The translations under genes and the position numbers were made by a program. A stretch of 24,512 bases of DNA from Candidatus Krumholzibacteriia bacterium. GTDB taxonomy: Bacteria > Krumholzibacteriota > Krumholzibacteriia > WVZY01. Below are positions 1,729-17,866 of the stretch, in pieces; within the stretch, counting starts at the first letter, position 1; each line of letters starts with the position of its first letter. Location: contig JAZGDW010000058.1 in assembly GCA_036478295.1 (NCBI GenBank), positions 1 to 24,512 of the forward strand, given 5' to 3'. Under the pieces are notes generated by a model that had not been told where the DNA came from, did not search any database, and worked only from the letters and a program-made list of their open reading frames with translations.

Positions 1729-2805
1729 ATGAAGAATCACGAACTGGTTTCGGATGTGTCCTACAAGGACATCCTGGTTGAGAAAAGACCATTGCGCGAT
1801 AACGACGGCAAAGAGGTCGAAGGGCTTCTTAACTACTGGATATTCCTCAACAACCCCGGGCAGTACAACTCGTACACGACGAACGCCCTCAAGGAATTGA
1901 TCCTGGCGTTCCGGCAGGCGTCGTGCGACCGCTCGGCCGTGGCCGCGATCCTGACCGGGGTGGGGGACAAGGCTTTCTGTACCGGCGGCAACACGAAGGA
2001 ATACGCGGAGTACTATGCGGGCAACCCGCAGGAGTACAAGCAGTACATGCGCCTGTTCAACGATATGGTGACGACCATTCTCACGTGCGACAAACCGGTG
2101 ATCAACCGGGTCAACGGCATGCGAATCGCGGGCGGGCAGGAAGCAGGGATGGCCTGCGACTTTTCGATTGCCGCGGACACGGCGGTTTTCGGACAGGCGG
2201 GACCCAAGCACGGTTCGGCGCCGGATGGCGGCTCCACGGATTTTCTGCATCTGTATGTCGGCCTGGGCCGCGCGATCGAGTCCTGCACCCTGTGTGGCTG
2301 GTGGTCCGCCCAAGAGGCGGTGAGGATGGGTCTGATCAACAAGATCACGCCGGTGCTCAAGAATGCGGACGGCGTCTTCATTTCGAGTCCATTCGCCAGC
2401 ATGGAAGAGTCGGACGAGTGGGGCAATCCCGCCCTCGGCAGGCTGAAGACGGGCAAGGCCCGCGAAGAGGCAAAGCGGGTTGCCGAAGGCTGCACGATCG
2501 ACCTGTCGCTGCTCGACGCCGAAACGGAAAAGCTCGCGTACGCGTTGGCGCTAACAATGCCGGACTGCATGAGCAAGACGCTCGAGTCGCTGCGCAAGAA
2601 GAAACTCGAGCACTGGCAGAAGAACTGTGAGACCAACCGCTCGTGGCTCGCGCTGAATATGATGACGGAGGCGAAGGCCGGCTTTCGCGCCTTCAACGAA
2701 GGGCCCAAGCACAACCGCGAGGTGGATTTTATCGCCTTGCGCCGCGCACTGGCCGAGGCAACGCCGTGGAGCGATGACCTCGTTGAACGCATCATGCCCA
2801 AGTAG
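1729..2805 (+). CDS. oah: 6-oxocyclohex-1-ene-1-carbonyl-CoA hydrolase (ring-opening crotonase; Oah/BamA/BzdY family)
   Basis: Motifs QYNSYTT, AFCTGGNTKEYAEYY, NGMRIAGGQE, GQAGPKHGSAP and WLALNMMTEAKAGF; AAGGAG RBS at 1715-1720. Confidence 0.95.
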   Translation: MKNHELVSDVSYKDILVEKRPLRDNDGKEVEGLLNYWIFLNNPGQYNSYTTNALKELILAFRQASCDRSAVAAILTGVGDKAFCTGGNTKEYAEYYAGNPQEYKQYMRLFNDMVTTILTCDKPVINRVNGMRIAGGQEAGMACDFSIAADTAVFGQAGPKHGSAPDGGSTDFLHLYVGLGRAIESCTLCGWWSAQEAVRMGLINKITPVLKNADGVFISSPFASMEESDEWGNPALGRLKTGKAREEAKRVAEGCTIDLSLLDAETEKLAYALALTMPDCMSKTLESLRKKKLEHWQKNCETNRSWLALNMMTEAKAGFRAFNEGPKHNREVDFIALRRALAEATPWSDDLVERIMPK

Positions 2806-2837
2806 CCGTTATGCCGACCTTGCGGCGGCATAACGGC
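2805..2837 (+). other. stem-loop immediately after the oah stop
   Basis: GCCGTTATGCCG (2805-2816) and CGGCATAACGGC (2826-2837) form a perfect 12-bp inverted repeat with a 9-nt loop and no U-tract. Confidence 0.7.
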
Positions 2838-2988
2838 CGGCGATTAGGAGCAGACAGTGCAAGCGCTGCAGCTCAATCACCGGGATTGCTGGCCACCCGG
2901 GGCATAACGGCCGGCGATTGGAGCAGACAGCGCAAGTGCTGCAGCTCAATCACCGGGATTGCTGGCCACCCGGGGCATAACGGCCGGC
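2827..2988. repeat. tandem direct repeat, 73-74 bp unit, about 2.2 copies
   Basis: Units begin GGCATAACGGCCGGC at 2827, 2901 and 2974 (third is partial). The two full copies differ by one indel and two substitutions. Confidence 0.95.
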
Positions 2989-3037
2989 CTTGCGGCGGGC
3001 ATGGCTGCACGGCCAAACTCGAAAAAGGAGACCAAGG

Positions 3038-3820
3038 GTGGCCCACGAAGTAATCAACGTCAACTACCTGCACGACGGACAGGTGGTGGAAATCGTCCTG
3101 GGGCCGGGGCCGGGGAATATTGTCACCGCACGGCTGATTCAGGAAATATCGACCGAGATCGGGATACTGACTGACGGTTCACCTGACAACCGAAGCCGCA
3201 AGCTGATCGTTTTCACAGGTGAGGGGGAGCATTTTAGTTACGGCGCTAGTGTTGAGGAACACAAGGCCGAGAGTGTGGGAGAAATGCTCCCCCAGTTTCA
3301 CCGGTTGATCGGGGAGATTCTCGAGTGCGACATTCCGACCCTGGCGAAGGTGTCCGGGTTGTGCCTGGGGGGCGGGTTCGAGCTCGCCCTGTCCTGCGCC
3401 ATGATATTCAGTGCCGGGGATGCCAAGTTCGGAGTTCCGGAGATCCAGCTGGGGGTCTTTCCACCGGTCGCCAGTGTACTCCTGCCCCACAAGATGGCAG
3501 AGTCGGCCGCCTCGCAAATGATCCTTACCGGCGCGAAGGTCAGCGCCGGCGAGCTCCAGCGTCTGGGCGTCGTGCACGCCGCGACGGGCTCGATCGACGA
3601 TTCGGTGGAGCAGTTCATCCAGAAACAGATTCTCCCCAAGAGCGCATCGTCGCTCAGGTTTGCGTGCCGTGCGGCGCGGGCGGGCATCCGGCGGCAGTAT
3701 CGCGAAAACATAGCAGAGGTGGAGCGCCTCTACCTCGACCAGCTCATGGCCACCGCGGATGCCCGGGAGGGCATCGACGCGTTTCTCGAAAAACGCTCCC
3801 CGAAATGGACCCACAAATAG
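3038..3820 (+). CDS. dch: cyclohexa-1,5-diene-1-carbonyl-CoA hydratase (crotonase family)
   Basis: HFSYGASVEEH, CLGGGFEL and PEIQLGVFPP motifs; GTG start at 3038 with AAGGAG at 3025-3030; pathway context. Confidence 0.9.
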   Translation: MAHEVINVNYLHDGQVVEIVLGPGPGNIVTARLIQEISTEIGILTDGSPDNRSRKLIVFTGEGEHFSYGASVEEHKAESVGEMLPQFHRLIGEILECDIPTLAKVSGLCLGGGFELALSCAMIFSAGDAKFGVPEIQLGVFPPVASVLLPHKMAESAASQMILTGAKVSAGELQRLGVVHAATGSIDDSVEQFIQKQILPKSASSLRFACRAARAGIRRQYRENIAEVERLYLDQLMATADAREGIDAFLEKRSPKWTHK

Positions 3821-3831
3821 GAGGTAGTTCC

Positions 3832-4572
3832 CTGGCCGACAAGCGACATAAGCCCGATCCCATCGGTTCCTGGTCGATGACCGAAGGCCTGGACGAGATC
3901 CTGAAGAAATCGTGTCACTTGATGGCACGCCAGGGGTTTCACGGGACCAGTATGCGCGATCTCGCGCAGGCAACCGGGCGAAGCCTGTCGGGCCTGTACC
4001 ACTACTTTCGCAACAAAGAGGACCTGCTCTTTCTCATCAACTTCTACGGATTCAAGACGCTGAACGAGACGTGGGCCAGGATCGCCGATAACTTCGAACA
4101 TCCACGGGAGAAGCTGTACACGTTCGTTTATTTTCACACCGCCTATTTCATCGAGCACATGGACGAGATGCGCGTGATGACCTGGGGGACTCACGAATTG
4201 CACCTGGAGAAGGCCACGGTGATACAGAAACTCAAAGACCGGTATACCGCCGCCGCCCGTGGGATCGTCCGGGATGTATATCAAGCCGACAAGCGGATGG
4301 ACCTGGACGAACGCCGGTCATGGCGGGAGACATACCTGCTGTTCGGGATGATGAACTGGATGTTCAGCTGGTATTCGGCGAAAGACCATGGGGGCGTCAG
4401 CGATCTCGTCGGTGATATTTATCGTACGTTCGTGTCGGGCATTTCGGGTAACGGCCGTGACCAGATCGACATCGAGCGCCTGAAGAGTGTGGTCGGCAAA
4501 TCGTTTCGCGAGAACAAGGCGGCGTCGATGTGGGCGACGACCGGTGAATCGGACCACTTGGAGAAATCATGA
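3832..4572 (+). CDS. TetR/AcrR-family transcriptional regulator (PaaR/KstR2-like); start uncertain (CTG 3832 or ATG 3877)
   Basis: HTH ILKKSCHLMARQGFHGTSMRDLAQATGRSLSGLYHYFRNKEDLL; C-terminal LFGMMNWMFSWY. Its stop overlaps the bcrC start (ATGA). Confidence 0.9.
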   Translation: MADKRHKPDPIGSWSMTEGLDEILKKSCHLMARQGFHGTSMRDLAQATGRSLSGLYHYFRNKEDLLFLINFYGFKTLNETWARIADNFEHPREKLYTFVYFHTAYFIEHMDEMRVMTWGTHELHLEKATVIQKLKDRYTAAARGIVRDVYQADKRMDLDERRSWRETYLLFGMMNWMFSWYSAKDHGGVSDLVGDIYRTFVSGISGNGRDQIDIERLKSVVGKSFRENKAASMWATTGESDHLEKS

Positions 4573-5729
4573 GCGTCGGCAGCACTGTGAGCAGATGCGA
4601 GGAACTCTACAACGATCTCCATTTCTCGTACGTCAAGGAGTGGAAGAAAAAGCGCGGCGGTCGCGCCATCGGCTATATGCCCATCTACGTGCCACGCGAG
4701 ATCATCCACGCGGCGGGCATGCTGCCCGTCGGCATAATGGGCGCCGGTGACAACCTCGAAATCATTCGCGGAGACGCATACTACCAGTCGTACATCTGCC
4801 ACATTCCCCGCTCGACAATCGAGCTGGGCCTCGGGGGCCGCCTCGATTGTCTGGACGGCATGCTGTTTCCCGCCATTTGCGACGTTATCCGTAACCTCAG
4901 CGGTATGTGGCAGCTGATGTTCAAGGACAAGTATGTGAAATACATCGATTATCCCCAGAACTTCAATGCGGGCATCGGCGGCAACTTCTATGTCAACGAG
5001 TTGAATCAGCTCCGCAACGACCTCGGGGCCATGAACGGCAAGCCGATCCACAACGACAAACTCAACGAGTCGATCAAACTCTACAACAAGAACGCGAAGG
5101 CAATCGACAGACTGTACGCGCTCCGCGCCGAGGCGCCTCACCTGGTGCCGACCTACGAGCTCTATCTGCTCATGCGCGCGGGGAATATTCTGGAGGTCTC
5201 GGAGCACACCCGTATGGTCGAAGAGTACCTCTCGCAGGTGAAGAAGGAGAAACGGCATGAAATGGACAACATTCGCGTCATCGTCACCGGCGTCTTCTGC
5301 GAACAGCCGCCGCTCGGGCTGATACGAGCGCTCGAGCAGAGCGGCTGTTACATCGTGGATGACGACTGGGTGCTGGGCGCGCGCTACCTCACCGGCGGGG
5401 TGGCGATAACCGACGACCCAGTACAGGCCCTGTCCGACGGCTATTTGAACCACGGCGTCGCAACGGCTTCGCGTTACATCGACCAGGAGGAAAAAGGGCG
5501 TGATCTCATCGATCGCGTCAAGAAGCTCAACGCGGAGGGGGTCATTTTCGCGTCGCCGAGCTTCTGCGACCCGGCGCTGCTCGAGCGGCCGATGCTGCAG
5601 AGCGCGCTCACGAAGGCGAACATTCCCAACACATCATTCAAGTTTTCGGAAAACTCGGGCCAGTACCAGGTCATCAAAGAGCAGACAGGAACCTTTTCGG
5701 ACTCGATCAAACTTTGGGGGACGGCATGA
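4569..5729 (+). CDS. bcrC: benzoyl-CoA reductase subunit C (2-hydroxyacyl-CoA dehydratase-like)
   Basis: 386 aa with GDAYYQSYICHIPRSTIELG, PAICDVIRNLSGMW, GVFCEQPP, SFCDPALLERPM and EQTGTFSDSIKLW; first gene of the CBAD order. Confidence 0.93.
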   Translation: MSVGSTVSRCEELYNDLHFSYVKEWKKKRGGRAIGYMPIYVPREIIHAAGMLPVGIMGAGDNLEIIRGDAYYQSYICHIPRSTIELGLGGRLDCLDGMLFPAICDVIRNLSGMWQLMFKDKYVKYIDYPQNFNAGIGGNFYVNELNQLRNDLGAMNGKPIHNDKLNESIKLYNKNAKAIDRLYALRAEAPHLVPTYELYLLMRAGNILEVSEHTRMVEEYLSQVKKEKRHEMDNIRVIVTGVFCEQPPLGLIRALEQSGCYIVDDDWVLGARYLTGGVAITDDPVQALSDGYLNHGVATASRYIDQEEKGRDLIDRVKKLNAEGVIFASPSFCDPALLERPMLQSALTKANIPNTSFKFSENSGQYQVIKEQTGTFSDSIKLWGTA

Positions 5730-6994
5730 GCCAGAATACTACCGCTCAAAAAGAAAAGAGCATGGAGCTGCAGAAGGAAATGATCGCCGCCCATTTCAAG
5801 CGGTTGTCCAGGGTGAAGGAAACGGGCAAGAAGGTTGTCTACACGTTCGTTCCCGGCAATCTCAACGAGCTGATATGGTCGTTCGACATGCTGCCCGTTC
5901 ATCCCGAGATCAACGCCCTGCAATCGGCGATGCGCAAGAAGAGCAGCCAGTACGTGCTCGAAGCCGAGAAGCACGGCCACTCGGAGGACGTCTGCACCTA
6001 CGTCAAATGTGACATCGGCATGTTGAAGAGCGGGAATATCGGTCCCACAGGTGAGAAGCTCCCCGAACCCGACCTGCTGTTACTCAGCTATACCGGTTGC
6101 TTCACGTTCATGAAATGGTTCGAGCTGCTCAAGCAGGAATACGGCTGCCCGGTGGCGATGCTGCACGTGCCCTACCAGGGGGACGGAGAGCAAACACCGG
6201 AGATGCTCGAGTACGTGGTGAAGCAGCTCAGGGATGAGGTCATACCGCTGATGGAAAAAATCTCCGGCAACAAGTTCGACGAGGACCGCCTGCGCGGGTT
6301 TATGGCCGCGTCGGCAAGAGCCGAGGACGACCTCGTCGCCGTATGGGAGTCGGCGAAGCACCGCCCGTCGCCCATCGACGCCTATTTCGGCGGAGTGTTC
6401 TACATCGGCCCGATGTTCTCGGCGTTCCGGGGGCTGGAATCCTGCGAGGATTACTACAAGACCCTGCGCGAAGAAGTCGACAACCGGGTGGCGAAGAAGC
6501 TGGGGCCCATCACGCCCGACGGCATGATGAAGGAGGAAAAGTACCGCCTGGTGGTGGAAGGACCCCCGAACTGGACCAGCTTCCGCGACTTCTGGAAGAT
6601 GTTCTACGAGGAAGGCGCGGTCGTGGTGAGCTCTTCTTACACCAAGGTCGGCGGTATCTACGATTCCGGCTTTCGCCACGATCCTGACCGTCCGCTGGAG
6701 AGCCTCGCGGAGTATTGCTCCGGATGCTACACCAACCTCAACCTGCCGACGCGGATCGAGCTCCTGCAAAAAGCCATGGACGATTTTGAGGCGGACGGGT
6801 TCTTGATCAACTCGATCAAGAGCTGTAATTCCTTTTCGGCCGGGCAGCTGCTCATCCTGCGCGAGCTGGAGAACCGCACCGGCAAAGCGGGGGGATTCAT
6901 CGAGTCCGACCTCGTGGACCCGCGGTATTTCAGCGCGGCGAACATCAAGAACCGGCTGGAATCCTATTTCCAGATGATCGACGCCAAACGATAG
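5726..6994 (+). CDS. bcrB: benzoyl-CoA reductase subunit B
   Basis: GHSEDVCTYVKCDIG, SYTGCFTFMKWFE, EGPPNWTSF, KSCNSFSAGQ and ESDLVDPRYFS; ATG 5726 overlaps the bcrC stop (ATGA). Confidence 0.93.
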   Translation: MSQNTTAQKEKSMELQKEMIAAHFKRLSRVKETGKKVVYTFVPGNLNELIWSFDMLPVHPEINALQSAMRKKSSQYVLEAEKHGHSEDVCTYVKCDIGMLKSGNIGPTGEKLPEPDLLLLSYTGCFTFMKWFELLKQEYGCPVAMLHVPYQGDGEQTPEMLEYVVKQLRDEVIPLMEKISGNKFDEDRLRGFMAASARAEDDLVAVWESAKHRPSPIDAYFGGVFYIGPMFSAFRGLESCEDYYKTLREEVDNRVAKKLGPITPDGMMKEEKYRLVVEGPPNWTSFRDFWKMFYEEGAVVVSSSYTKVGGIYDSGFRHDPDRPLESLAEYCSGCYTNLNLPTRIELLQKAMDDFEADGFLINSIKSCNSFSAGQLLILRELENRTGKAGGFIESDLVDPRYFSAANIKNRLESYFQMIDAKR

Positions 6995-7004
6995 GAGCGA
7001 ACGG

Positions 7005-8360
7005 ATGGATTGTTACATCGGAATCGACCTTGGTTCGACCACGACGAAGGCCGTCTACATGGACACGGACGAGCGCATCCTGGGCCGCGGCATTACGAAC
7101 AGCCGGGCCAACTACGGGCTCGCCTGTGAGATCGCGAGCGACGAGGCCGCTATCAATTCCCGTTTTCACCTGCTCAGGCGCAAGATCGGCGAGAAGCACG
7201 ACTCCGGCGAGTTGGTGACCAACCTCATGGATTGGCTGGGATGCAAGTTCAAACTGGCGCAGCACCTGCAGCAGGTAGAGGCGCTGGAGAGAGTATGCGG
7301 CGAGATTGTGGGCGGCTGGACCGATGCGGAGGCGAAGAAAGCCCACATGCCGGCGCTCGCAAAGATATTCGCCGAGATGAACGACCTCGCCGCTCCGATG
7401 TTCCGGCCCGGCGTCAAGTCGCGCAGCGACTTCTTCAGGGATATCGCCTCGAGCCAGTTTCTCGACAATGCCGAGGGACTGGCCCGGAGTGACGGCGTGT
7501 CGTTCGACCGCCTGACCGGCCTTTTCGACAAGGCGATCCTCCTGGTCGAGGGCGAGAGCTTCGCGGAGCACTACGACACCTATCTCGATTTCGCGTGCCG
7601 GGAAACGCTCAAGGTCGACGGCTTCAGCGCGCTCGAAGACGAAATCAAGCGGGCGACCGAGTACGCGGCCACGGTCGAATTCAACGCCATCAATACAATC
7701 GGCACCGGTTACGGGCGCCAGACCCTCCCGTTCCCCAAGCACCAGATCCGCTCGGAGATTCTGTGCCACGGGTTGGGGGCGCACTCCATGTTCCCGCGGA
7801 CGGCAACGGTGCTCGATATCGGTGGGCAGGACACGAAGGCCATCCAGGTCGACCCCGCCGGCGTCGTGACGAACTTTCAGATGAACGACCGCTGCGCGGC
7901 CGGGTGCGGCAGATACCTTGGGTACATCGCCGACGAAATGAACATGGGCGTGCACGAGCTGGGGCCGCTGGCGATGACGGCGAAGCGCACGGTCCGCATC
8001 AACTCGACCTGCACCGTGTTCGCCGGCGCGGAGCTCCGCGAGAGGCTGGCCCTTGGCGAGAGGCGTGAGGACATTCTCTCCGGCCTGCACCGGGCCATTG
8101 TCATCCGGTCGATGTCGCTTCTGGCGAGGAGCGGCGGCGTAAAGGACGAGTTTACTTTTACCGGTGGCGTGGCCAAAAACGAGGCGGCGACCGATGCGCT
8201 GAAGAAGCTCGTGTTCGAGAACTACGGAGAGATGACGATCAACATCAGCCCGGACAGCATTTACACCGGGGCATTGGGGGCCGCGCTCTTTGCCCGCCGG
8301 GACGAGAAGGGCGATCTGGTGAACGTGGATCTGAAGAAACTGAGAAAGAGGGTACACTGA
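7005..8360 (+). CDS. bcrA: benzoyl-CoA reductase subunit A (ASKHA ATPase, [4Fe-4S] activator)
   Basis: GIDLGSTTTK, long helical insertion, GTGYGR, SEILCHG, LDIGGQDTK, MNDRCAAGCG, NSTCTVFA and TGGVAKN; AGGAG RBS at 6993-6997. Confidence 0.95.
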   Translation: MDCYIGIDLGSTTTKAVYMDTDERILGRGITNSRANYGLACEIASDEAAINSRFHLLRRKIGEKHDSGELVTNLMDWLGCKFKLAQHLQQVEALERVCGEIVGGWTDAEAKKAHMPALAKIFAEMNDLAAPMFRPGVKSRSDFFRDIASSQFLDNAEGLARSDGVSFDRLTGLFDKAILLVEGESFAEHYDTYLDFACRETLKVDGFSALEDEIKRATEYAATVEFNAINTIGTGYGRQTLPFPKHQIRSEILCHGLGAHSMFPRTATVLDIGGQDTKAIQVDPAGVVTNFQMNDRCAAGCGRYLGYIADEMNMGVHELGPLAMTAKRTVRINSTCTVFAGAELRERLALGERREDILSGLHRAIVIRSMSLLARSGGVKDEFTFTGGVAKNEAATDALKKLVFENYGEMTINISPDSIYTGALGAALFARRDEKGDLVNVDLKKLRKRVH

Positions 8361-9217
8361 TGCTATATACCTTGGGAATGGATGTCGGCTGCAGCGCGGT
8401 CAAGTCCGCCGTGATGGCGTTCGATGACCGGGGCCGCAAGGAGAAGTTGCTCGGTACCCGGTTGGACAAGATCCGCAGGCGCAACCTCAAGGATGTTATC
8501 GTGCAATCCTGTGAGCGCATCCTGGAGGAGCAGAAGTTGTCCCGAGACGACATTGACTACGTGGCCACGACCGGCGAAGGCGAACTGGTGGATTTCAAGC
8601 GAGGCCATTTTTATTCCATGACCACGCACGCGCGCGGCGCCCTCTTTCTGGACCCCGAGGCAAGGGCGGTCCTGGACGTGGGCGCGCTGCACTCGAAGGC
8701 CATCGTCATGGACGAGCGCTCCAAGGTTCTGGGCTATCGCATGACGTCGCAGTGCGCGTCGGGCACCGGCCAGTTTCTGGAGAACATCTCGCGTTATCTC
8801 GGCGTGTCCATCGACGAAGTGGGGCCACTCTCCCTCGAGGGAGACAATCCGGAGATCGTATCGGGCATTTGCGCGGTCCTCGCCGAGACGGACGTCATCA
8901 ATATGGTGAGCCGCGGGATCACGCCAGGAAACATTCTCAAGGGAATCCACTTGTCCATCGGCAAGCGGTTGATTAACCTGCTGCGTATGGTGAAGGCCGA
9001 GGGCCCGATGCTCGTGACCGGCGGCCTTTCCAGGGACAGCGGACTGCTCGCCGTTCTCGAAGAGCTGGCGCAGAAGACGTCGCTGGACGTCGAGGTTCGC
9101 AGCCACGAGCTATCCGTCTTCGCGGGGGCCATCGGTGCGGCGGTGTGGGGTGCATTCCGCCACGTAAAACTGAAGGGCGCTCACAAGTCGTCGTCGCAGG
9201 CGATCGGCACCGCCTGA
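8360..9217 (+). CDS. bcrD: benzoyl-CoA reductase subunit D (ASKHA ATPase)
   Basis: GMDVG, YVATTGEGE, HFYSMTTHARGA, MTSQCASGTGQFLEN and SGICAVLAETDVINMVSRG; TGATG overlap with bcrA. Confidence 0.95.
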   Translation: MLYTLGMDVGCSAVKSAVMAFDDRGRKEKLLGTRLDKIRRRNLKDVIVQSCERILEEQKLSRDDIDYVATTGEGELVDFKRGHFYSMTTHARGALFLDPEARAVLDVGALHSKAIVMDERSKVLGYRMTSQCASGTGQFLENISRYLGVSIDEVGPLSLEGDNPEIVSGICAVLAETDVINMVSRGITPGNILKGIHLSIGKRLINLLRMVKAEGPMLVTGGLSRDSGLLAVLEELAQKTSLDVEVRSHELSVFAGAIGAAVWGAFRHVKLKGAHKSSSQAIGTA

Positions 9218-11382: not shown

Positions 11383-11985
11383 ATGTCAAAAGAGGCAAAG
11401 ACGGACCATCCCGTGCATGAGCTTATTGCAAAACGTTGGAGCCCGTACGGCTATGCGGATCGCACCGTATCCGTAGAGGATCTTCGCTCGCTGTTCGAAG
11501 CGGCTCGGTGGGCCGCCTCCTCGTACAACGAGCAGCCGTGGCGGTATATCGTTGCGACGAAGGACGACCCGCAAGAATTCGAGCGGGTGCTCTCCTGCCT
11601 GGTCGAGGGCAATCAGGGATGGGCGAAATCGGCGCCGGTACTGGCCCTGGGTTGTGTCAATCTCAACTTCACCCGCAACGGCAAGCCGAACGCCGCGGCC
11701 ATTCATGACCTGGGGCTCGCCGCGGGCAACCTGACGTTCGAGGCCACGGCCCGGGGGATCGTCGTCCACCAGATGATCGGCATCCTGCCGGACCGTGCGC
11801 GCGAGATCTACGGCATCCCCGAAGGCTCGCAGCCAGTAACGGCACTAGCCATTGGTTACGCCGCAGACCCCGGCGACCTGCCGGAGCCGCTGAAAGAGCG
11901 TGACCTCGCGCCCCGCAGTAGAAATCCCCTGGGTGAGTTGGTTTTTGGGGGTAAGTGGGGAGAGCGCGCCGACTTCACCGGATAG
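11383..11985 (+). CDS. nitroreductase-family flavoprotein
   Basis: IAKRWSP, EAARWAASSYNEQPWRY, HDLGLAAGNL, HQMIG and AIGY motifs; AAGGAG RBS. Confidence 0.92.
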   Translation: MSKEAKTDHPVHELIAKRWSPYGYADRTVSVEDLRSLFEAARWAASSYNEQPWRYIVATKDDPQEFERVLSCLVEGNQGWAKSAPVLALGCVNLNFTRNGKPNAAAIHDLGLAAGNLTFEATARGIVVHQMIGILPDRAREIYGIPEGSQPVTALAIGYAADPGDLPEPLKERDLAPRSRNPLGELVFGGKWGERADFTG

Positions 11986-11989
11986 CGTC

Positions 11990-12068
11990 CGCGAAAACCG
12001 CCGCGCGGCTCAGCGCCGGCGGCGCGCGACAACCCGAGCGCGACAACCCCGGTGCCACCCGCGAAAAC
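11990..12068. repeat. four dispersed copies of the 9-mer CGCGA(A/C)AAC
   Basis: Copies start at 11990, 12025, 12039 and 12060, in the spacer between the convergent nitroreductase and histone genes. Confidence 0.55.
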
Positions 12069-12079
12069 GGCACGCCGGC

Positions 12080-12265
12080 TCAAAAGTCCCGGTCCATGAC
12101 GGTCTTGCGACCGGCACTCCTTGCCTTTTCAACGGCCTCATCGCAGAGACGGCGAACGATGCTGGACAATGCCGGTGCAACGTTGCCGGCCGTGCTCATG
12201 CCGGCGGTCGACTTGATGTATTTCTTGATCTTCGATACAACAACCAGGGTTTCGTTATCGCTCAT
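12080..12265 (-). CDS. bacterial histone-fold protein (Bd0055-like singlet)
   Basis: 61 aa and basic. alpha1 LVVVSKIKKYIK, L1 GMSTA, alpha2 ALSSIVRRLCDEAVEKARSAG, L2/alpha3 RKTVMDRDF with histone R-x-T-x4-D spacing. AGGAGG RBS a few nt upstream of the ATG. Confidence 0.9.
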   Translation of the reverse strand: MSDNETLVVVSKIKKYIKSTAGMSTAGNVAPALSSIVRRLCDEAVEKARSAGRKTVMDRDF

Positions 12266-12321
12266 GGTCCCTCCTGTGCGTGGTTCGGGCCAGCCCGTCC
12301 GGGACGGGGTTTTGACGGATT

Positions 12322-12350
12322 AATATAGCCGTGTCCGGGCAGGTTTGGAA
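12322..12350 (-). promoter_or_regulatory. candidate sigma70 promoter of the histone gene
   Basis: Minus strand TTCCAA (12350-12345), 17-nt spacer, TATATT (12327-12322), about 55 nt upstream of the ATG. Confidence 0.55.
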
Positions 12351-12391
12351 ACGACTATTTTGTCGCCGCGAGCGGATCGTTTCCCGTGCGA

Positions 12392-12435
12392 GCGTGCCCT
12401 GTAACATGATATATACAATAGGTTACAGGGCACGC
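12392..12435. other. 14-bp perfect inverted repeat (terminator-like hairpin or binding site)
   Basis: GCGTGCCCTGTAAC (12392-12405) and GTTACAGGGCACGC (12422-12435) around an AT-rich 16-nt loop, about 40 nt downstream of the cytochrome stop. Confidence 0.7.
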
Positions 12436-12477
12436 ACCAGACGGAGAACCCCGATAGTATCCTGGGCGCCGTCTGGC

Positions 12478-15138
12478 TCAGCGCAGGAGAACGATCTTGC
12501 GGCTGAAATGCTGTGTCGCCGTCTTCATGCGGTAATAGTAAACCCCCGAGGCAACGCGCTGGCCGACCTGGTTGGTTCCATCCCAGGTGACCGTCTGAAA
12601 CCCTGGTGGCCTTTCCTCATTGATAAGCGTCTTCACCAGACGACCGGCGACGTCGTAGATGCGGATCGTCATCGGTTCCCGTTTTCCGAGCGCATAGCGG
12701 ATGGTCGCAGATGTGCGGAACGGGTTGGGCCAGTTCTGGAGCAGCGCGGTCTTTATCGTTGGAATATCACCGATCCCAGTCGGATCCACATGGAGGCTGG
12801 TTGTGTCGGTGACCATTACAACCGGCGCGGCCCGTCCCTGTGCCACCCATGCATCGTACAACTGTTGTCCCAGTGTGTTGGTCGTGTTTTCGTCGCGGAG
12901 GAACTCGATGTATCCCTTCGATGTAGTTTGGTAATACAGTGTCACCTCTGCGAACACCGCGTCGAGGGGCAGAACGTATTCGGTTTCGTCCCAGTACTGG
13001 CCGTCCGGATACGTGTGCGCGACCGGCGGCGACTGAATTGCTTCAAAGGCCGCAAAGGTGTACCCGCGCGGCGGAATCCGGTTATCCGAATATATGGTGT
13101 CGTTCAAAACGAAATGGAACGACGGGGCCGCGGGCAGACCGACGACCGGCGCGAGCGATGTCGAAACGCCGGGCTTGACCTGATAGATCTTCACGTCGGC
13201 GTCGTGCGTAAGAACGCCGGTCGCGGGATCGTATGCGCCTGATTCGTAAACCAGGCTGTCGTCCGCATCGAACGCCTTGACACCCAGCCAGATCCTCCGG
13301 CCTTCCGGGTAGCCGGACGGTAGCTTGTGGCCTGTTTCGTTGGTGACCGTCACCGTGACTGTCGGATTGGAAAGTTGCTGGCCGGGGGTAAGTGCCATCG
13401 TCGCCGCCAGCCCCAGCATCTGGATCGCCCGCTGCTTTCCATCCTGCAGGCGCAGCGAATCCACTTCACTGCCCCAGAAGGACGGCAGAATATCCGGCAC
13501 GAAGTGATTGGCTCCCATCAGGTCGTGCAGCGGCAGATCGGGCCGCGTCGGAACGCCGGGCTCGTCGCAGCCCACTCCGCTAACGTCGCGCATGTGGCAA
13601 TCCTGGCAGGTCGACACGATGCCGTCGGCCTTATTGCCCGCGAACTGCGGTGCGAACACGCCCGACGCCGCGTACTCACTCTCCGACCACTCGCTGAACG
13701 TACGCTCCACAGGGAACATATTCCGAAGGTCTCCGTCGGGATGGGGTGCGTCGAATGCGTTAGGCACGTATTCACCCGGACTGCCGCCGGCGCTGAACAC
13801 GGGGTTGCTGACGTCATGGCAGGTCCCGCAGAGAGCGGCGCGGTGAAAGGGCGATTCGAGAAACGAGTGGCTCGCGACCGCATCGCCAAACGGCCCGCGC
13901 ATGATCGGGTCCGGGTCGACCACATACTGCCCGTTCGCCGGGGCGAGGGGCACGACATCCAGCGAATCGAGCACCGCCGTGTCCTGCGGTGGGCTTATGC
14001 CGGGTTTATAGATCGGGTCCACCTGGCGGTGACAGAAATCGCATTGGACACCCGCGCGGTCCTTTGCCGTTATGAGAGCACCGCTCGTATCGACCGAACG
14101 TCCTTCCAGCCACCCGCCCGGCGTGTGACAACGGATGCAAAGATCGCCCACTGACGGCGCATCCTGCTCGGCCACCACCACGGTGGCCAGAAACAGCGGA
14201 TCCCTCTGGGCTTGGGCCATCATACTGCCCTTCCACACGTACCAGGGCTCCACCGCGGGATCGTATTCGCCGTGGCAGGTGACGCAGTTGACATCGGGGT
14301 CCCTGAACACACCTGCGGAGAATGGCTGCGAGCCGGGAAGATCGATATCACGCATCGTTGTGGGGACAGTTCCACCGGGTACGCGGGTGATCGTGAAGGA
14401 GGCGTCGCTCAGATCCTCACCGTAGTTGCCCGCGTTGTCCCGTGCCACCACACGGATGGCGCTCAGTCCGCCGGGGCGGTTGGGCACGAACCAGTCGAAG
14501 GTTCCGTCGTTGGGTTCCTGGGCGGCGACCTGCTTGAAGGTCCCGCCAAAATCGTCGGACAAGTAGATATCCACATGTGAAATGCCGCTGGCGTCGGTCG
14601 CCGACCAGGTCACGAGATCGAATGTGCCTGCCTGGGCGTTCTCTCCGCCGTTCGGTGACAGAACGGTCACGACCGGAGGTGTGGTGTCGCTGCTGCCGCT
14701 GGGCGTCAGGTACGGCAGTATGTCGGCCGGATCGACGTTAGCGACGGAGCCGACGTTGCCCGATTCGAGTCCGGGGAAGGTCGGGGTATTGGTAAAATTG
14801 ATGACGTCTGTTATCTCGACATTATTGATAAAACCATCGTTGTCGGCATCGAGGCCATCGAGCGAGAGGATGGCAGCCTCGGTGGTGGGGAAGCTGCCGA
14901 TGGCAACCTCCACCGACAATCCGTAAGGATTCCGCGGCCCGCCGCCGTCGAAATCAAAATGGCACACACCGCAGTGCCCCGCGTTGCTGGGCAGGTCGTC
15001 GAGCCGGCTTGCGGTGGCGCCGGGATACACATTGAAAAACGCCTTGCGGATCGGTCTTCGGGCCTGGGCCGGTGACACCGGAAGCGTGAGAAGGGTCGCG
15101 ATGACGAGGATGGATACTCTGAAAAAGGCAGTGGGCAT
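12478..15138 (-). CDS. secreted multiheme (6 CxxCH) cytochrome c with an Ig-like domain and a C-terminal FlgD-Ig/T9SS-type sorting domain
   Basis: Start reassigned to ATG 15138 (GAGGTG RBS; signal peptide MPTAFFRVSILVIATLLTLPVSPAQA), giving 886 aa. Heme motifs CGVCH, CVTCH, CIRCH, CDFCH, CGTCH, CQDCH; GHKLPSG; tail LLQNWPNPF...IYDVAGRLV...WDG...ASGVYYY...KIVLLR. Confidence 0.9.
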   Translation of the reverse strand: MPTAFFRVSILVIATLLTLPVSPAQARRPIRKAFFNVYPGATASRLDDLPSNAGHCGVCHFDFDGGGPRNPYGLSVEVAIGSFPTTEAAILSLDGLDADNDGFINNVEITDVINFTNTPTFPGLESGNVGSVANVDPADILPYLTPSGSSDTTPPVVTVLSPNGGENAQAGTFDLVTWSATDASGISHVDIYLSDDFGGTFKQVAAQEPNDGTFDWFVPNRPGGLSAIRVVARDNAGNYGEDLSDASFTITRVPGGTVPTTMRDIDLPGSQPFSAGVFRDPDVNCVTCHGEYDPAVEPWYVWKGSMMAQAQRDPLFLATVVVAEQDAPSVGDLCIRCHTPGGWLEGRSVDTSGALITAKDRAGVQCDFCHRQVDPIYKPGISPPQDTAVLDSLDVVPLAPANGQYVVDPDPIMRGPFGDAVASHSFLESPFHRAALCGTCHDVSNPVFSAGGSPGEYVPNAFDAPHPDGDLRNMFPVERTFSEWSESEYAASGVFAPQFAGNKADGIVSTCQDCHMRDVSGVGCDEPGVPTRPDLPLHDLMGANHFVPDILPSFWGSEVDSLRLQDGKQRAIQMLGLAATMALTPGQQLSNPTVTVTVTNETGHKLPSGYPEGRRIWLGVKAFDADDSLVYESGAYDPATGVLTHDADVKIYQVKPGVSTSLAPVVGLPAAPSFHFVLNDTIYSDNRIPPRGYTFAAFEAIQSPPVAHTYPDGQYWDETEYVLPLDAVFAEVTLYYQTTSKGYIEFLRDENTTNTLGQQLYDAWVAQGRAAPVVMVTDTTSLHVDPTGIGDIPTIKTALLQNWPNPFRTSATIRYALGKREPMTIRIYDVAGRLVKTLINEERPPGFQTVTWDGTNQVGQRVASGVYYYRMKTATQHFSRKIVLLR

Positions 15139-15186
15139 GGCGCACCTCGTTCGGAGAAAGGGGAAGGAAAAGTGACAAATATCAAC

Positions 15187-15206
15187 TATGTGAAAAGTTT
15201 CACATA
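15187..15206. promoter_or_regulatory. Rex- or CRP-type operator upstream of the cytochrome gene
   Basis: TATGTGAA-aagt-TTCACATA fits both TGTGA-N6-TCACA (CRP) and the TGTGAA-N4-TTCACA core (Rex). It lies between a minus-strand TATACT (15224-15219) and the start codon. Confidence 0.7.
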
Positions 15207-15400
15207 CTTTCTGCAGTGAGTATAGACCTGATTGTTGCGTTTCGCCATTTCGTTTTTGCCCCGCCGATCGATCCTCTAACGGAATAGTGAAACCATCGCC
15301 TGAAATTGGCTTGCGCCGGGCTGTGCCGCGTGCCACGATGCACGGTGCCCGCTTGGGGTCGCGGGTCCTTATTCGCGATCGTGTGTCCACTGCAACCCTC

Positions 15401-16579
15401 ATGAAAAACAGACTGTCGGTGATTCAATCCGTGCCGGTCTGGCTACCGCAGACCGGCACGTGGCTCCACGACCAGGTTCGGTTCCTGCCCGACGATATCG
15501 AGAGCCACGTCGTTTGCGAAACCACTCAACGCCTCGACCAGTTTCCCTTCCACAATATCGACTGCCTTCGCGATCAGCCGCGCCTGAAATTCGTCTGGGA
15601 CCTGGGTATGCGGAAGATCGGCGCCCGCAAGCACCTGCATTTCCACGTGGCGTGCGCCCGCAAGCACGGCGCCCGCCTGATGCACTCGCATTTCGGCAAC
15701 ACCGCCTGGCAGGATCTCGGCGCCGCCAGGGCTGCGTCGCTGCACCACGTCGTCACGTTCTACGGGCGGGACGTGAACCACCTGCCCACCGTCGATCCAC
15801 GCTGGCGCGAGCGCTACGGCGAGCTGTTCCGGCGGGTCGACTGCGTGCTGTGTGAAGGCGAGTTCATGGCGGCGAGCATCGTGCGGCTCGGCTGCCCCGA
15901 GAACAAAGTGCGTGTCCACCACCTGGGGGTCGATGTCGAGGCCATCACCTTCGTGCCCAGGGAATGGGCGCCCGGCCAGCCGCTGCGCGTGTTCATGGCA
16001 TCTGTTTTTCGCGAAAAGAAAGGAATCCCCTACGGACTGGAGGCATTGGGCCGGCTGCAGCACGACGTTCCGCTGGAAATCACCATCATTGGTGACGCGC
16101 ACGGCACGGCCGGCACCCGGGAAGAGAAGAAGAAAATCCTCGCCACCATCGAAAAGCACGGCCTGGGTCCGCGAACCCGCCGGCTCGGCATCACGCCGTA
16201 CGAGGTCATGCGCCGGGAAGCGCTCGATCACCACGTTTTCATGTCGCCGAGTGTGACGGCCGCCGACGGCGACACCGAGGGTGGGGTTCCGGTCTCGATT
16301 ATCGAGATGTGCGCGTCGGGCATGCCGGTGGTGAGCACCAGGCACTGTGACATCCCCGGTGTTATTCTCGACGGCAAGACCGGCCTGCTCGCCGACGAGC
16401 GCGACGTCGACGGGCTGGTGCGCGGCCTGCGCTGGCTGGTGGAACATCCCGGCGAGTGGAGCGGTATGCTCGCTGCCTCCCGCCGGCGCATCGAGCAGGA
16501 GTTCGATGCTCGTACGCAGGGGACGCGGCTCGGTGCCATATACGCGGAGATCGCGGGCGGGGGCGCCGTCGCCGCCTGA
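15401..16579 (+). CDS. GT4 (GT-B) glycosyltransferase, WcaL-like
   Basis: HSHFG, VVTFYGRDV, REKKGIPY, PSVTAADGDTEGGVPVSIIE and VVSTRHCDIP motifs. ATG 15401 preferred because the upstream extension runs through the divergent promoter region. Confidence 0.88.
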   Translation: MKNRLSVIQSVPVWLPQTGTWLHDQVRFLPDDIESHVVCETTQRLDQFPFHNIDCLRDQPRLKFVWDLGMRKIGARKHLHFHVACARKHGARLMHSHFGNTAWQDLGAARAASLHHVVTFYGRDVNHLPTVDPRWRERYGELFRRVDCVLCEGEFMAASIVRLGCPENKVRVHHLGVDVEAITFVPREWAPGQPLRVFMASVFREKKGIPYGLEALGRLQHDVPLEITIIGDAHGTAGTREEKKKILATIEKHGLGPRTRRLGITPYEVMRREALDHHVFMSPSVTAADGDTEGGVPVSIIEMCASGMPVVSTRHCDIPGVILDGKTGLLADERDVDGLVRGLRWLVEHPGEWSGMLAASRRRIEQEFDARTQGTRLGAIYAEIAGGGAVAA

Positions 16580-16696
16580 AGCCGCTGCGGACGCTCGCCG
16601 ATAGCGCGAAAAGGCCTGTACCATCAACGGTTGCGCGCCCCGGTACTTCCCGCTAATATCAGGGGGCGCACCCCCATTTGAAAGGCGACCCGATCG

Positions 16697-17866
16697 ATGT
16701 CCGACCCCGTACGTCCCGATGACCGCTTCCTGATTTTCGGCGCTCCCGCCATCGAGGAGGACGAGGTGCAGGAAGTCGTCGCCAGCATCCGTAGCGGCTG
16801 GCTCGGCACCGGTCCCAAGGTTGCCCGCTTCGTCGAGGACTTCAAGAGCTACATCGGCGCAGAGCACGCCGCCGCCGTCAACTCCGGCACCGCGGCCATG
16901 CATCTGGCCATGATCGCCGCGCAGCTCGATCGCGGTGACGAAGTCATCACGACGGCGATGACGTTCTGCTCCACGGTCAACGCGATCATCCATGCCGGCG
17001 CGACGCCCGTACTCGCCGACTGTGATCGCGGGACGATGAACATCGATCCCGCGCGCATCGAAGAAAAGATCACCCCCCGCACGCGCGCTGTCATGCCGGT
17101 GCACTTCGCGGGCCGCGCGTGCGACATGGACGCCATCATCGACATCGCCGCGCGTCACAACCTCAAGGTGATCGGCGACTGCGCCCACGCCATCGAGACG
17201 GAGTACAAGGGACGCAAGGTGGGGACCATCGGTGAATTTGCCTGCTACAGTTTTTACGTAACGAAGAACGTCATTACCGGCGAAGGAGGCATGGTGCTCA
17301 CCCGCCGGGAGGAGGACGCGGCCCGTATCCGCACGCTCGCGCTGCACGGGATGAGCAAGGACGCGTGGAAACGCTTCAGCGACGAGGGCTACGTCCATTA
17401 CTACGTCTACGAGGCGGGCTTCAAGTACAACCTGATGGATATCCAGGCGGCGATCGGCATACACCATCTCAAACGGGTGGAGAAATACTGGAAGCGCCGG
17501 GAGGAGATATGGAAGCGTTACGACAAGGCATTCGCGGACATGCCGATCGGCACCCCACTGCCAGCCGAACCGGACACGCGCCACGCCCATCATCTCTACA
17601 CGATCATGGTGGACAAGAAGCGGTCGGGAATCACTCGCGACGAGTTCTTGAACGCGATCCAGGCACATAATATCGGAGTCGGTGTTCACTATTTGAGCAT
17701 CCCCGAGCATCCTTACTATAAGAAAACCTTCGGCTGGAAGCCCGCGGAGTACCCGAACGCCTCGCGGGTCGGGCGCGAAACGGTTAGCCTGCCCCTGTCG
17801 GCCAAACTGACCGACGGGGACGTCGACGACGTGGTCGAGGCGGTGGGGAGGGTTCTTCACCGGTGA
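16697..17866 (+). CDS. DegT/DnrJ/EryC1/StrS-family PLP-dependent NDP-sugar aminotransferase
   Basis: SGWLGTGP, NSGTAAMHLA, PVHFAG, DCAHA, SFYVTKNVITGEGG (PLP lysine), GFKYNL and SLPL motifs. Confidence 0.93.
   Translation: MSDPVRPDDRFLIFGAPAIEEDEVQEVVASIRSGWLGTGPKVARFVEDFKSYIGAEHAAAVNSGTAAMHLAMIAAQLDRGDEVITTAMTFCSTVNAIIHAGATPVLADCDRGTMNIDPARIEEKITPRTRAVMPVHFAGRACDMDAIIDIAARHNLKVIGDCAHAIETEYKGRKVGTIGEFACYSFYVTKNVITGEGGMVLTRREEDAARIRTLALHGMSKDAWKRFSDEGYVHYYVYEAGFKYNLMDIQAAIGIHHLKRVEKYWKRREEIWKRYDKAFADMPIGTPLPAEPDTRHAHHLYTIMVDKKRSGITRDEFLNAIQAHNIGVGVHYLSIPEHPYYKKTFGWKPAEYPNASRVGRETVSLPLSAKLTDGDVDDVVEAVGRVLHR

What the first reader, a model, noticed from the sequence alone, without database searches (positions are those of the whole stretch)
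12080..12265. Stand-alone bacterial histone (Bd0055-type)
Seen: a 61-aa basic ORF with strong RBS, its own candidate promoter and the signature GRKTVMDRD. Established: the R-x-T-x4-D L2/alpha3 motif is the archaeal histone RD clamp. The protein aligns without gaps, by eye and from memory, to Bdellovibrio Bd0055 (LVVxSKxKKxIK...M-x-T...LS...LC...VE-x-A...GRKTVMxRD), an abundant nucleoid protein that binds DNA without forming canonical nucleosomes. Inference: histone-based chromatin in an apparent FCB-lineage anaerobic aromatic degrader. The gene is small enough to be missed or called hypothetical, and the protein stops right after RDF, so alpha3 is minimal.
Basis: partly seen in the sequence, partly recalled or inferred. 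Interest (0 to 1): 0.8.

Follow-up and report, generated by a model that had tools for sequence, protein, structure and literature searches.

The report
Bdellovibrio-type bacterial histone gene
This small gene really does encode a miniature bacterial histone of the type first studied in Bdellovibrio, a known and widespread family, and the same genome also carries a second histone of the DNA-wrapping Leptospira type that is common across its whole phylum.

Summary
A 61-codon ORF at 12080-12265 (-) has a Shine-Dalgarno site and a promoter-like site conserved in a congener. It aligns without gaps to Bd0055/HBb (27 of 56 identical, E 3.2e-10). The AlphaFold model (pLDDT 91) is a histone fold with a one-turn alpha3 and best matches HBb structures.

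It belongs to the 'bacterial dimer' class of alpha3-truncated histones. It lacks two of the three conserved residues behind face-to-face (FtF) tetramers and the archaeal tetramer histidine.

It is a new member of a known kind. At least 557 related loci exist in species genomes, and this scan already holds 69 notes with the same words from at least 60 genomes.

New here:
- The genome, whose nearest named relatives are Krumholzibacteriia (FCB superphylum), also has an FtF-type histone on another contig, plus three HU/IHF genes.
- The FtF type occurs in 139 of 208 genomes of the phylum. The HBb type occurs in only 10, and 9 of those 10 carry both.

Expression, oligomeric state and DNA binding are untested. 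No RNA run was listed, and the complex prediction never ran because its queue stayed full.

The parts
12080..12265 (-). Coding sequence of a 61-aa singlet histone of the alpha3-truncated 'bacterial dimer' (HBb/Bd0055) type. Predicted alpha1 is residues 9-21, alpha2 29-50, alpha3 58-60. L2 is R53-K54-T55 and the RD clamp is R53/D60.
   Evidence: ORF. PDB phmmer: 8fvx/8cmp E 3.2e-10 without gaps. AF2 pLDDT 91. Foldseek top five rows are all HBb, TM 0.71-0.76. dN/dS 0.07 against the congener.
12270..12275 (-). Shine-Dalgarno-like AGGAGG, 4 nt upstream of the ATG.
   Evidence: Read directly from the sequence. GGAG is kept in the congener (A2).
12322..12351 (-). Promoter-like site TTTCCA-18-TATATT, the candidate own promoter of the histone gene.
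   Evidence: 1 site found against a shuffle mean of 0.2. The congener has TTTTCA and an identical TATATT in an otherwise diverged spacer. Consensus match only; no transcript data.
12392..12435 (.). Perfect 14-nt inverted repeat with a 16-nt loop, between the stop of the upstream 974-aa gene (12478) and the histone promoter. Probably that gene's terminator hairpin or an operator. It marks the histone as a separate unit.
   Evidence: arms 12392-12405 and 12422-12435, 100% complementary. It is the main hairpin in the fold of 12266-12480(-), z -3.31. No T-run follows, and the terminator scan found none.
11986..12079 (.). 94-nt GC-rich spacer between the convergent nitroreductase gene (stop at 11985) and the histone stop. 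It holds hairpins followed by UUUUC on the minus strand and is a possible bidirectional terminator.
   Evidence: Fold (z -1.06, not significant). The consensus terminator scan found none. Weak.

Best explanation
The ORF encodes a genuine singlet histone of the alpha3-truncated 'bacterial dimer' class, the class of Bdellovibrio HBb/Bd0055.

Inferred mechanism, by homology to HBb:
- Two chains pair head to tail through antiparallel alpha2 helices. The hydrophobic positions L33, V37, L40, I13 and F61 correspond to HBb L31, I35, L38, V11 and I59.
- The dimer binds the DNA backbone without sequence preference through the alpha1 Ser-Lys face (S11, K12, K14, K18) and the L2 loop (K54, T55, R59). The L2 loop is held by the R53-D60 clamp.
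- It has neither the archaeal tetramer histidine nor the FtF Arg/Asn pair. It therefore most likely stays a dimer that bends or coats DNA and does not wrap it.

In this organism it is a monocistronic, accessory nucleoid protein. It acts beside an FtF-type histone that is widespread in the phylum and three HU/IHF proteins.

Shown here: gene, family, fold, conservation and paralogue inventory. Inferred: dimer state, DNA bending, nucleoid role and expression.
For: - Sequence: 8fvx_A/8cmp_A E 3.2e-10 without gaps. HLp (9qt0) scores 1e-6, HTkC (9f2c) 4.7e-4 and HMfB 0.2.
- Fold: pLDDT 91, helices 9-21 and 29-50, one-turn alpha3. Foldseek ranks 1-5 are HBb entries (TMq 0.71-0.76, 48% identity), then HLp and HTkC.
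- DNA contacts: of the 10 HBb DNA-contact residues named in PMC11317129 (passage), 7 are identical here: S9, K10, K12, K16, K52, T53 and R57 map to S11, K12, K14, K18, K54, T55 and R59. Both RD-clamp residues are kept.
- Not the FtF type: in alignment A3 the FtF Arg and Asn are present in 10 of 10 FtF-type rows from the phylum, and the window protein has K47 and A51. The profile scores are 122.2 bits (HBb type, self left out) against 39.2 (FtF type).
- No archaeal tetramer histidine: the position of HBb A48 / archaeal H49 is S50 here (alignment with the passage).
- Selection and regulation: dN/dS is 0.07-0.25 in the 6 of 8 orthologue pairs where dS could be computed. The promoter-like site is conserved in the congener.
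- Chromosomal setting: the pirin-nitroreductase-histone order is shared with the congener. There was no phage match.
Against: - There is no evidence of expression. No RNA run was listed.
- Oligomeric state and DNA binding are not tested.
- Pfam PF00808 scores 21.1 bits, just under its 21.4 cut-off. NCBIfam archaea_histone scores 21.7 against a cut-off of 50.
- Three of the 10 HBb DNA-contact residues differ (T8 to V10, N22 to S24, S24 to A26). The extra HBb salt-bridge residue D49 is A51 here.
- The protein ends one residue after the clamp Asp. HBb runs at least to I61, and its tail packs on the partner's alpha2 (passages). Dimer stability could therefore differ.
- The HBb type is present in only 10 of 208 genomes of the phylum and 3 of 13 of the family. 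It is dispensable for the lineage and not its main chromatin protein.
- The DNA-binding mode of HBb itself is disputed in print: an end-on sheath on straight DNA (PMC10627809) or bending (PMC11317129).
Confidence: 0.85

Rival explanations
1. It pairs or stacks with the genome's FtF-type histone (contig C252). It would form mixed dimers or cap FtF tetramers, so its role would be to tune DNA wrapping by the main histone and not to act alone.
For: Both genes sit in one genome. In the phylum, 9 of the 10 genomes with the HBb type also carry an FtF type. The two predicted folds are alike: the FtF model also matches HBb at TMq 0.75-0.78. Two of 5 HBb holders sampled from other phyla also have a strong FtF-type hit.
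Against: The two proteins give no BLASTP alignment at all. They lie on different contigs in unrelated neighbourhoods. G017 (100% complete) has the HBb type with no strong FtF hit. FtF genes are so common in the phylum (139 of 208) that co-occurrence is expected by chance. No mixed complex was modelled.
Confidence: 0.08
2. It is a tetramer-forming, DNA-wrapping histone like HLp/HTkC (FtF type) that was misfiled as the dimer type.
For: It matches HLp at E 1e-6 and 40% identity, with TMq 0.80. HLp R49 is conservatively replaced by K47. S52, R55 and F63 are kept as S50, R53 and F61.
Against: HLp N53 is A51 and T61 is R59 here (alignment with the passage). The Arg/Asn pair is invariant in 10 of 10 FtF rows and absent here. 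The profile difference is 83 bits in favour of the HBb type.
Confidence: 0.04
3. It is a histone-fold protein that does not bind DNA, such as a protein-protein adaptor, or the ORF is not expressed at all.
For: No expression data exist. The Pfam hit to TAFII28 (E 7.5e-4, below cut-off) is a reminder that histone folds also serve as protein adaptors.
Against: The DNA-contact residues and RKT loop are invariant across 25 aligned relatives (S11, K12, K14, R53, K54, T55, R59, D60). The protein has a basic pI. Purifying selection is strong. A ribosome site and a promoter-like site are conserved.
Confidence: 0.03

Closest known systems
HBb / Bd0055 of Bdellovibrio bacteriovorus (PDB 8fvx, 8fw7, 8cmp, 9ezz, 9f0e); 'bacterial dimer' category of alpha3 histones (PMC11390915)
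   Same: - Gap-free alignment, 27 of 56 identical.
- Same predicted fold, with alpha2 one turn short and a one-turn alpha3.
- S-K motif, alpha1 lysines, RKT loop and RD clamp are present.
- 7 of 10 DNA-contact residues are identical.
- No tetramer histidine and no FtF Arg/Asn pair.
   Different: - The C-terminus stops at F61, one residue after the clamp Asp, while HBb runs on at least to I61 in its own numbering.
- HBb D49, the extra salt bridge to the clamp Arg, is Ala here.
- T8, N22 and S24 of HBb are V, S and A here.
- The host is a Krumholzibacteriia-like FCB bacterium, and the protein co-resides with an FtF-type histone.
- Abundance and essentiality, shown for Bd0055, are unknown here.
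HLp of Leptospira perolatii (PDB 9qt0-9qt2) and HTkC of Thermococcus kodakarensis (9f2c): face-to-face (FtF) alpha3 histones
   Same: Same truncated histone fold (TMq 0.75-0.80), with the RD clamp and a C-terminal aromatic residue. These are the closest solved relatives of the genome's second histone on C252.
   Different: The window protein lacks the conserved tetramer Asn (A51) and has Lys for the Arg (K47). It scores 83 bits lower on the FtF profile than on the HBb profile.
Archaeal nucleosomal histones HMfA/HMfB (PDB 1a7w, 1b67, 5t5k)
   Same: RKT loop and RD clamp. The match covers alpha2-L2-alpha3 only (residues 28-60, E 0.2).
   Different: Alpha2 is shorter, alpha3 is one turn instead of three, and there is no His49-type four-helix-bundle interface. 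Hypernucleosome formation is therefore not expected (passages of PMC10627809).
HU/IHF (Pfam PF00216)
   Same: Small, basic, dimeric, non-specific DNA benders. PMC11317129 likens HBb's action to theirs. Three such genes are in this genome.
   Different: Unrelated fold. They are functional analogues only.

Membership tests
alpha3-truncated histones (PMC11390915) | Histone fold (helix-loop-long helix-loop-helix) | tested here: met
   AF2 pLDDT 91, helices 9-21, 29-50 and 58-60. Foldseek probability 1.00 to HBb, HLp and HTkC. This is a predicted structure, not a solved one.
alpha3-truncated histones (PMC11390915) | Alpha3 of only 3-4 residues and alpha2 shorter than in nucleosomal histones | tested here: met
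   DSSP gives alpha3 as residues 58-60 and alpha2 as 22 residues. The definition was read in a passage.
'bacterial dimer' histones (HBb/Bd0055 group) | Sequence clustering with HBb. The category is defined by sequence, not by structure. | tested here: met
   HBb is the best solved match, 43.2 bits against 32.4 for HLp. HBb-type profile without self 122.2 bits against FtF profile 39.2. I did not run the CLANS clustering used in the paper.
'bacterial dimer' histones (HBb/Bd0055 group) | RKTxxxD motif and conserved alpha1 lysines / S-K motif | tested here: met
   R53-K54-T55...D60, S11-K12, K14 and K18. All except K18 are invariant in 25 rows.
'bacterial dimer' histones (HBb/Bd0055 group) | Lacks the FtF dimer-dimer residues (R48/N52 of the FtF logo) | tested here: met
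   K47 and A51 sit at those columns, while 10 of 10 FtF rows have R and N.
'bacterial dimer' histones (HBb/Bd0055 group) | Dimer as the largest oligomer; bends or coats DNA | not tested
   Complex prediction was never accepted.
FtF histones (HLp/HTkC) | Conserved R49, N53 and R55 (HLp numbering) forming the tetramer hydrogen-bond network | tested here: not met
   Only R55 (the clamp Arg, R53 here) is kept. R49 is K47 and N53 is A51 (alignment; residues from the section read).
Archaeal nucleosomal histones (Pfam PF00808 / NCBIfam NF043032) | Score over the curated cut-off; three-turn alpha3; tetramer histidine | tested here: not met
   21.1 bits against a 21.4 cut-off and 21.7 against 50. Alpha3 is one turn. 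S50 stands at the histidine position.
DUF1931 pseudodimeric histones (PF09123) | Two fused histone folds | tested here: not met
   The protein is a 61-aa singlet. PF09123 finds nothing in the genome at E <= 1 (genome 90.9% complete).

The most novel reading that the evidence does not exclude
Krumholzibacteriota would be a bacterial phylum with unusually persistent histone genes. An FtF-type, probably DNA-wrapping histone is found in about two thirds of its genomes, against 1-2% of bacterial genomes overall in the published surveys. A few lineages, including this one, add an HBb-type bending histone and keep HU/IHF as well. In that reading the two histone types share the work, or form mixed assemblies, in one bacterial cell.
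Probability: 0.2. Interest if true: 0.6.

Novelty: new member of a known kind. Interest (0 to 1): 0.3.

Why it matters
Taken alone, the gene is one more correct example of a family that has been described structurally and catalogued since 2023-2024. It adds a host lineage, Krumholzibacteriia-like and in the FCB superphylum, that the passages I read do not list among the phyla named for this class. [quoted passage not shown]

The more useful result is the context:
- The same genome carries both bacterial histone types plus three HU/IHF genes.
- The FtF type is present in 139 of 208 genomes of the phylum.
- Published surveys give 1.86% of bacterial genomes with any histone fold (passage of PMC10627809) and 1.15% of bacterial proteomes with an alpha3 histone (passage of PMC11390915).

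This offers a natural setting to ask how a bending dimer and a wrapping tetramer coexist. No paper in the searched library holds both 'Krumholzibacteri' and 'histone'.

Tried and rejected
- **Expression.** The look-up of sequencing runs listed no RNA holder. All 22 rows were DNA or of unknown kind, and the best share of words was 0.26.
- **Codon-adaptation proxy for expression.** The reference was 14 minus-strand ORFs next to the S10 gene on C311, set against 2872 crude ORFs. The reference set's own median sits only at the 70th percentile. The HBb-type histone (49.5), FtF-type histone (43.3) and the three HU/IHF genes (40-48) are all mid-range. The proxy does not discriminate in this genome and I drew no conclusion.
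- **First own-genome inventory.** The window protein (E <= 10) and PF00808 found only the window gene and missed the second histone. Only a profile built from FtF-type hits of the phylum found it. My provisional 'single copy' reading was wrong.
- **Tree of 83 HBb-type rows, 64 columns.** Five of 78 inner branches were starred, and only the window+congener pair was recovered (SH-aLRT 91). I left out L077 and L084 (X or a stop inside) and L088, L089, L091, L092 and L093 (duplicates of L009, L010, L030, L055 and L075). The AU test does not reject the 10 rows of the phylum as one clade (p 0.689). That does not show a clade, so gain and loss cannot be told apart.
- **Syntenic comparator.** The nitroreductase neighbour was found in 1 of 5 family genomes, and only at 42% identity. 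There is no empty site to compare.
- **Phage origin.** PHROGs gave no family. tblastn against 50,697 phage records gave no match.
- **Consensus terminator scan.** None found. The downstream fold is not better than shuffles (z -1.06).

Full report
**1. The observation**

The window holds a 61-codon ORF at 12080..12265 on the minus strand. The signature GRKTVMDRD is residues 52-60, and the stop follows one residue after the clamp Asp. The protein is basic: pI 9.65, 11 K+R against 7 D+E, 6.6 kDa.

AGGAGG lies at 12270-12275 (-), 4 nt before the ATG. The promoter scan finds one site, TTTCCA-18-TATATT at 12351..12322 (-), against 0.2 expected from shuffles.

In the same-genus genome G011 the upstream spacer has diverged. 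It keeps TTTTCA and an identical TATATT at the same register, and it keeps the GGAG (alignment A2).

A perfect 14-nt inverted repeat (12392-12405 / 12422-12435) lies between the stop of the upstream 974-aa gene and this promoter. The downstream neighbour, a nitroreductase-family gene at 11383..11985, is convergent. The gene therefore looks monocistronic.

**2. What it is**

- **Solved structures.** phmmer against all PDB chains puts the Bdellovibrio histone first: 8fvx_A and 8cmp_A, E 3.2e-10, query 5-60 against chain 3-58 with no gap. I count 27 of 56 identical. Next come HLp of Leptospira perolatii (9qt0, 1e-6), HTkC of Thermococcus (9f2c, 4.7e-4) and HMfB (0.2).
- **Curated families.** Pfam PF00808 scores 21.1 bits, just below its 21.4 cut-off. 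NCBIfam archaea_histone scores 21.7 against 50. This explains why such genes are left as 'hypothetical'.
- **Predicted fold.** An AlphaFold2 model on a 25-row alignment has pLDDT 91, with helices 9-21 and 29-50 and a one-turn helix at 58-60. Foldseek ranks five HBb entries first (TMq 0.71-0.76, 48% identity), then HLp and HTkC, then eukaryotic H2B chains.

**3. Which class of bacterial histone**

PMC11390915 (passages) splits alpha3-truncated histones into two main bacterial classes. Face-to-face (FtF) tetramers carry a conserved Arg/Asn pair. 'Bacterial dimers' are the HBb group and lack that pair.

PMC12701072 (sections 6 and 7 read) names HLp R49, S52, N53, R55, T61 and F63 as the tetramer network. 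[quoted passage not shown]

On the alignment these six map to K47, S50, A51, R53, R59 and F61 here. The Asn is lost and the Arg is a Lys.

In an alignment with ten FtF-type proteins from the same phylum, the Arg and Asn are present in 10 of 10 FtF rows, and the window protein is the only exception. An HBb-type profile built without the window row scores it 122.2 bits. The FtF profile scores it 39.2.

The archaeal tetramer histidine position (HBb A48) is S50 here.

**4. DNA-binding and dimer residues**

Of the ten HBb DNA-contact residues listed in PMC11317129 (passage), seven are identical here: S11, K12, K14, K18, K54, T55 and R59. Three differ: V10, S24 and A26. The clamp R53/D60 is kept. 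HBb's extra D49 is Ala here.

The five hydrophobic dimer-interface positions named there (L31, I35, L38, V11, I59) are L33, V37, L40, I13 and F61 here.

The gene is therefore a member of the HBb/Bd0055 'bacterial dimer' class. Its dimer state and DNA bending are inferred from homology, not shown. The binding mode of HBb itself is reported in two ways: an end-on sheath (PMC10627809, abstract and passages) and bending (PMC11317129, abstract and passages).

**5. Is it a real, selected gene?**

- 123 of 125 candidates in the 5.8-billion set match at E <= 1e-3, best 90% identical. Some are named 'histone H3/H4' by JGI.
- The exact protein is in the collection from an NCBI source, so the gene was called.
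- dN/dS against the congener is 0.07. It ranges 0.07-0.25 in the 6 of 8 orthologue pairs where dS could be computed.
Titles include Planctomycetota, Bdellovibrionota, Gemmatimonadota, Nitrospirota, Chlamydiales, Eisenbacteria, Latescibacterota and Krumholzibacteriia.
- In the 1.84-billion representative library, 538 clusters match at E <= 1e-3 and 119 at <= 1e-10.

The family is large and widespread.

**6. The organism**

The congener's histone (L086) reads the same as P0005 apart from the first letter (a GTG start, printed V). NCBI files P0005 under Candidatus Krumholzibacteriia.

Passages of PMC10936416 place Krumholzibacteriota in the FCB superphylum. They say GTDB merges some Latescibacterota into it, and they report bcrABCD in its MAGs. 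The window carries two HGD-D and two BcrAD/BadFG genes with enoyl-CoA hydratases.

**7. Inventory of nucleoid proteins (genome 90.9% complete)**

- Three HU/IHF genes (PF00216; contigs C45, C101, C226).
- No DUF1931.
- My first searches with the window protein and PF00808 found only this histone.
- A profile of FtF-type hits from the phylum then found a second histone at G000:C252:33705-33887 (E 3e-25).

The second histone's ORF is L107:3998-4186, 62 aa.
- It has the invariant R48, N52 and R54.
- It matches HTkC and HLp but not HBb in the PDB.
- It gives no BLASTP alignment with the window protein and no Pfam hit.
- Its model (pLDDT 79.6) best matches HLp, TMq 0.79.
- It lies between a dCTP deaminase-like gene and an MgtC gene, in a locus collinear with the congener over 8 kb.

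**8. Distribution in the phylum (208 genomes, G000 included)**

| Histone type | Genomes with a hit | Details |
|---|---|---|
| HBb type | 10 at E <= 4.9e-29 | f1: G000, G011, G010. f2: G186. f3: 6 of 7. In the family: 3 of 13 genomes, 2 of 11 genera |
| FtF type | 139 of 208 at E <= 1e-3; 87 of 125 among high-quality genomes | Without G000: f1 11/12, f2 19/23, f3 7/7, f4 1/12, f5 9/10, f6 0/1, f7 8/43, f8 0/8, f9 83/91 |

All but three of the 139 have best E <= 1e-20. The three are G017 at 1.2e-5 (probably a cross-hit of its HBb-type gene), G027 and G063.

I read the sequences of only 11 of these FtF-type hits. Nine of the 10 HBb-type holders also have a strong FtF-type hit; G017 does not.

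Within f3 the HBb-type gene sits in a conserved neighbourhood across loci of three genera. That neighbourhood differs from the window's.

The tree is unresolved. The AU test does not reject one clade for the phylum's 10 rows (p 0.689).

Outside the phylum, 2 of 5 HBb-type holders tested also carry a strong FtF-type hit: genomes reached through L068 (Eisenbacteria title) and L060 (Oligoflexia title).

**9. Comparison with what is in print**

No paper in the searched library holds both 'Krumholzibacteri' and 'histone'.

In the supplements of PMC10627809, Candidatus Krumholzibacterium zodletonense appears in the genome list (Table S4). The term does not occur in the histone table S1. Files 6, 7 and 9 were not searched.

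In the supplements of PMC11390915, three of four files were searched without a hit for the four FCB names. Supplementary figures that I could not see may still show these phyla.

This scan already holds 69 notes with the words 'bacterial histone Bd0055 HBb' from at least 60 genomes. They include Eisenbacteria and another relative of the Bacteroidota group.

**10. Verdict**

The gene is a new member of a known kind and of modest interest. The added value is the two-histone setting and the high frequency of FtF-type histones in this phylum. Both are worth a specialist's look, and both rest so far on sequence searches only.

Noticed in passing
L107:3998-4186 (+), which is G000 contig C252, about 33702-33890: A second histone in the same genome. 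It is 62 aa and of the FtF (HLp/HTkC) type, with the invariant Arg/Asn/Arg tetramer residues. It has no Pfam hit and lies between a dCTP deaminase-like gene and an MgtC gene. The locus is collinear with the congener. Searches with the window protein and with PF00808 missed it.
   Followed up: yes
Phylum-wide; examples L097-L102, L105, L106: FtF-type alpha3 histone genes are found in 139 of 208 genomes of the window's phylum (87 of 125 high-quality ones), against 1-2% of bacterial genomes in published surveys. The searched literature does not mention histones in Krumholzibacteriota.
   Followed up: partly
L103:193-489 (+) and L104:196-486 (+), from genomes G036 and G040 of family f5: FtF-like histones of 98 and 96 aa carry a Lys/Ala/Pro-rich N-terminal tail of about 38 residues, reminiscent of eukaryotic or H1-like tails. 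The same genomes also hold a tail-less copy: 8 of the 9 matching f5 genomes, G036 and G040 among them, show two matches. No Pfam hit.
   Followed up: no
P0123-P0142: The best-scoring representatives for the window protein are 120-274-aa proteins with two matched stretches. These are tandem HBb-like doublets. Many other hits carry long N-terminal extensions.
   Followed up: no
window 4569-9217 (+), with 1729-3820: Two HGD-D (BcrB/C-like) genes and two BcrAD/BadFG ATPase genes in a row, preceded by two enoyl-CoA hydratases and a TetR regulator and followed by an SDR. The set looks like a class I benzoyl-CoA reductase, as reported for Krumholzibacteriota MAGs in PMC10936416.
   Followed up: partly
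window 12478-15402 (-): A 974-aa protein with weak multihaem-cytochrome matches (MtrC/MtrF-like and cytochrome c7, both below cut-off) and a FlgD-Ig / Por_Secre_tail C-terminal sorting domain. No homologue of it was found in the congener's 3.2-kb locus L086, where a homologue of the next ORF lies close upstream of the histone.
   Followed up: partly
window 12392-12435; L086 upstream region (A2 columns about 55-85): The perfect 14-nt inverted repeat upstream of the histone promoter has a different AT-rich palindrome (CTGTTATA-T-TATAACAG) at the matching place in the congener. It could be an operator and not only a terminator.
   Followed up: no
window 15443-17860 (-) against 16697-17866 (+): An 805-aa ORF without any Pfam hit overlaps a strong DegT/DnrJ aminotransferase gene on the other strand. 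Its 5' part is probably spurious. Only the part homologous to the congener is likely to be real.
   Followed up: no
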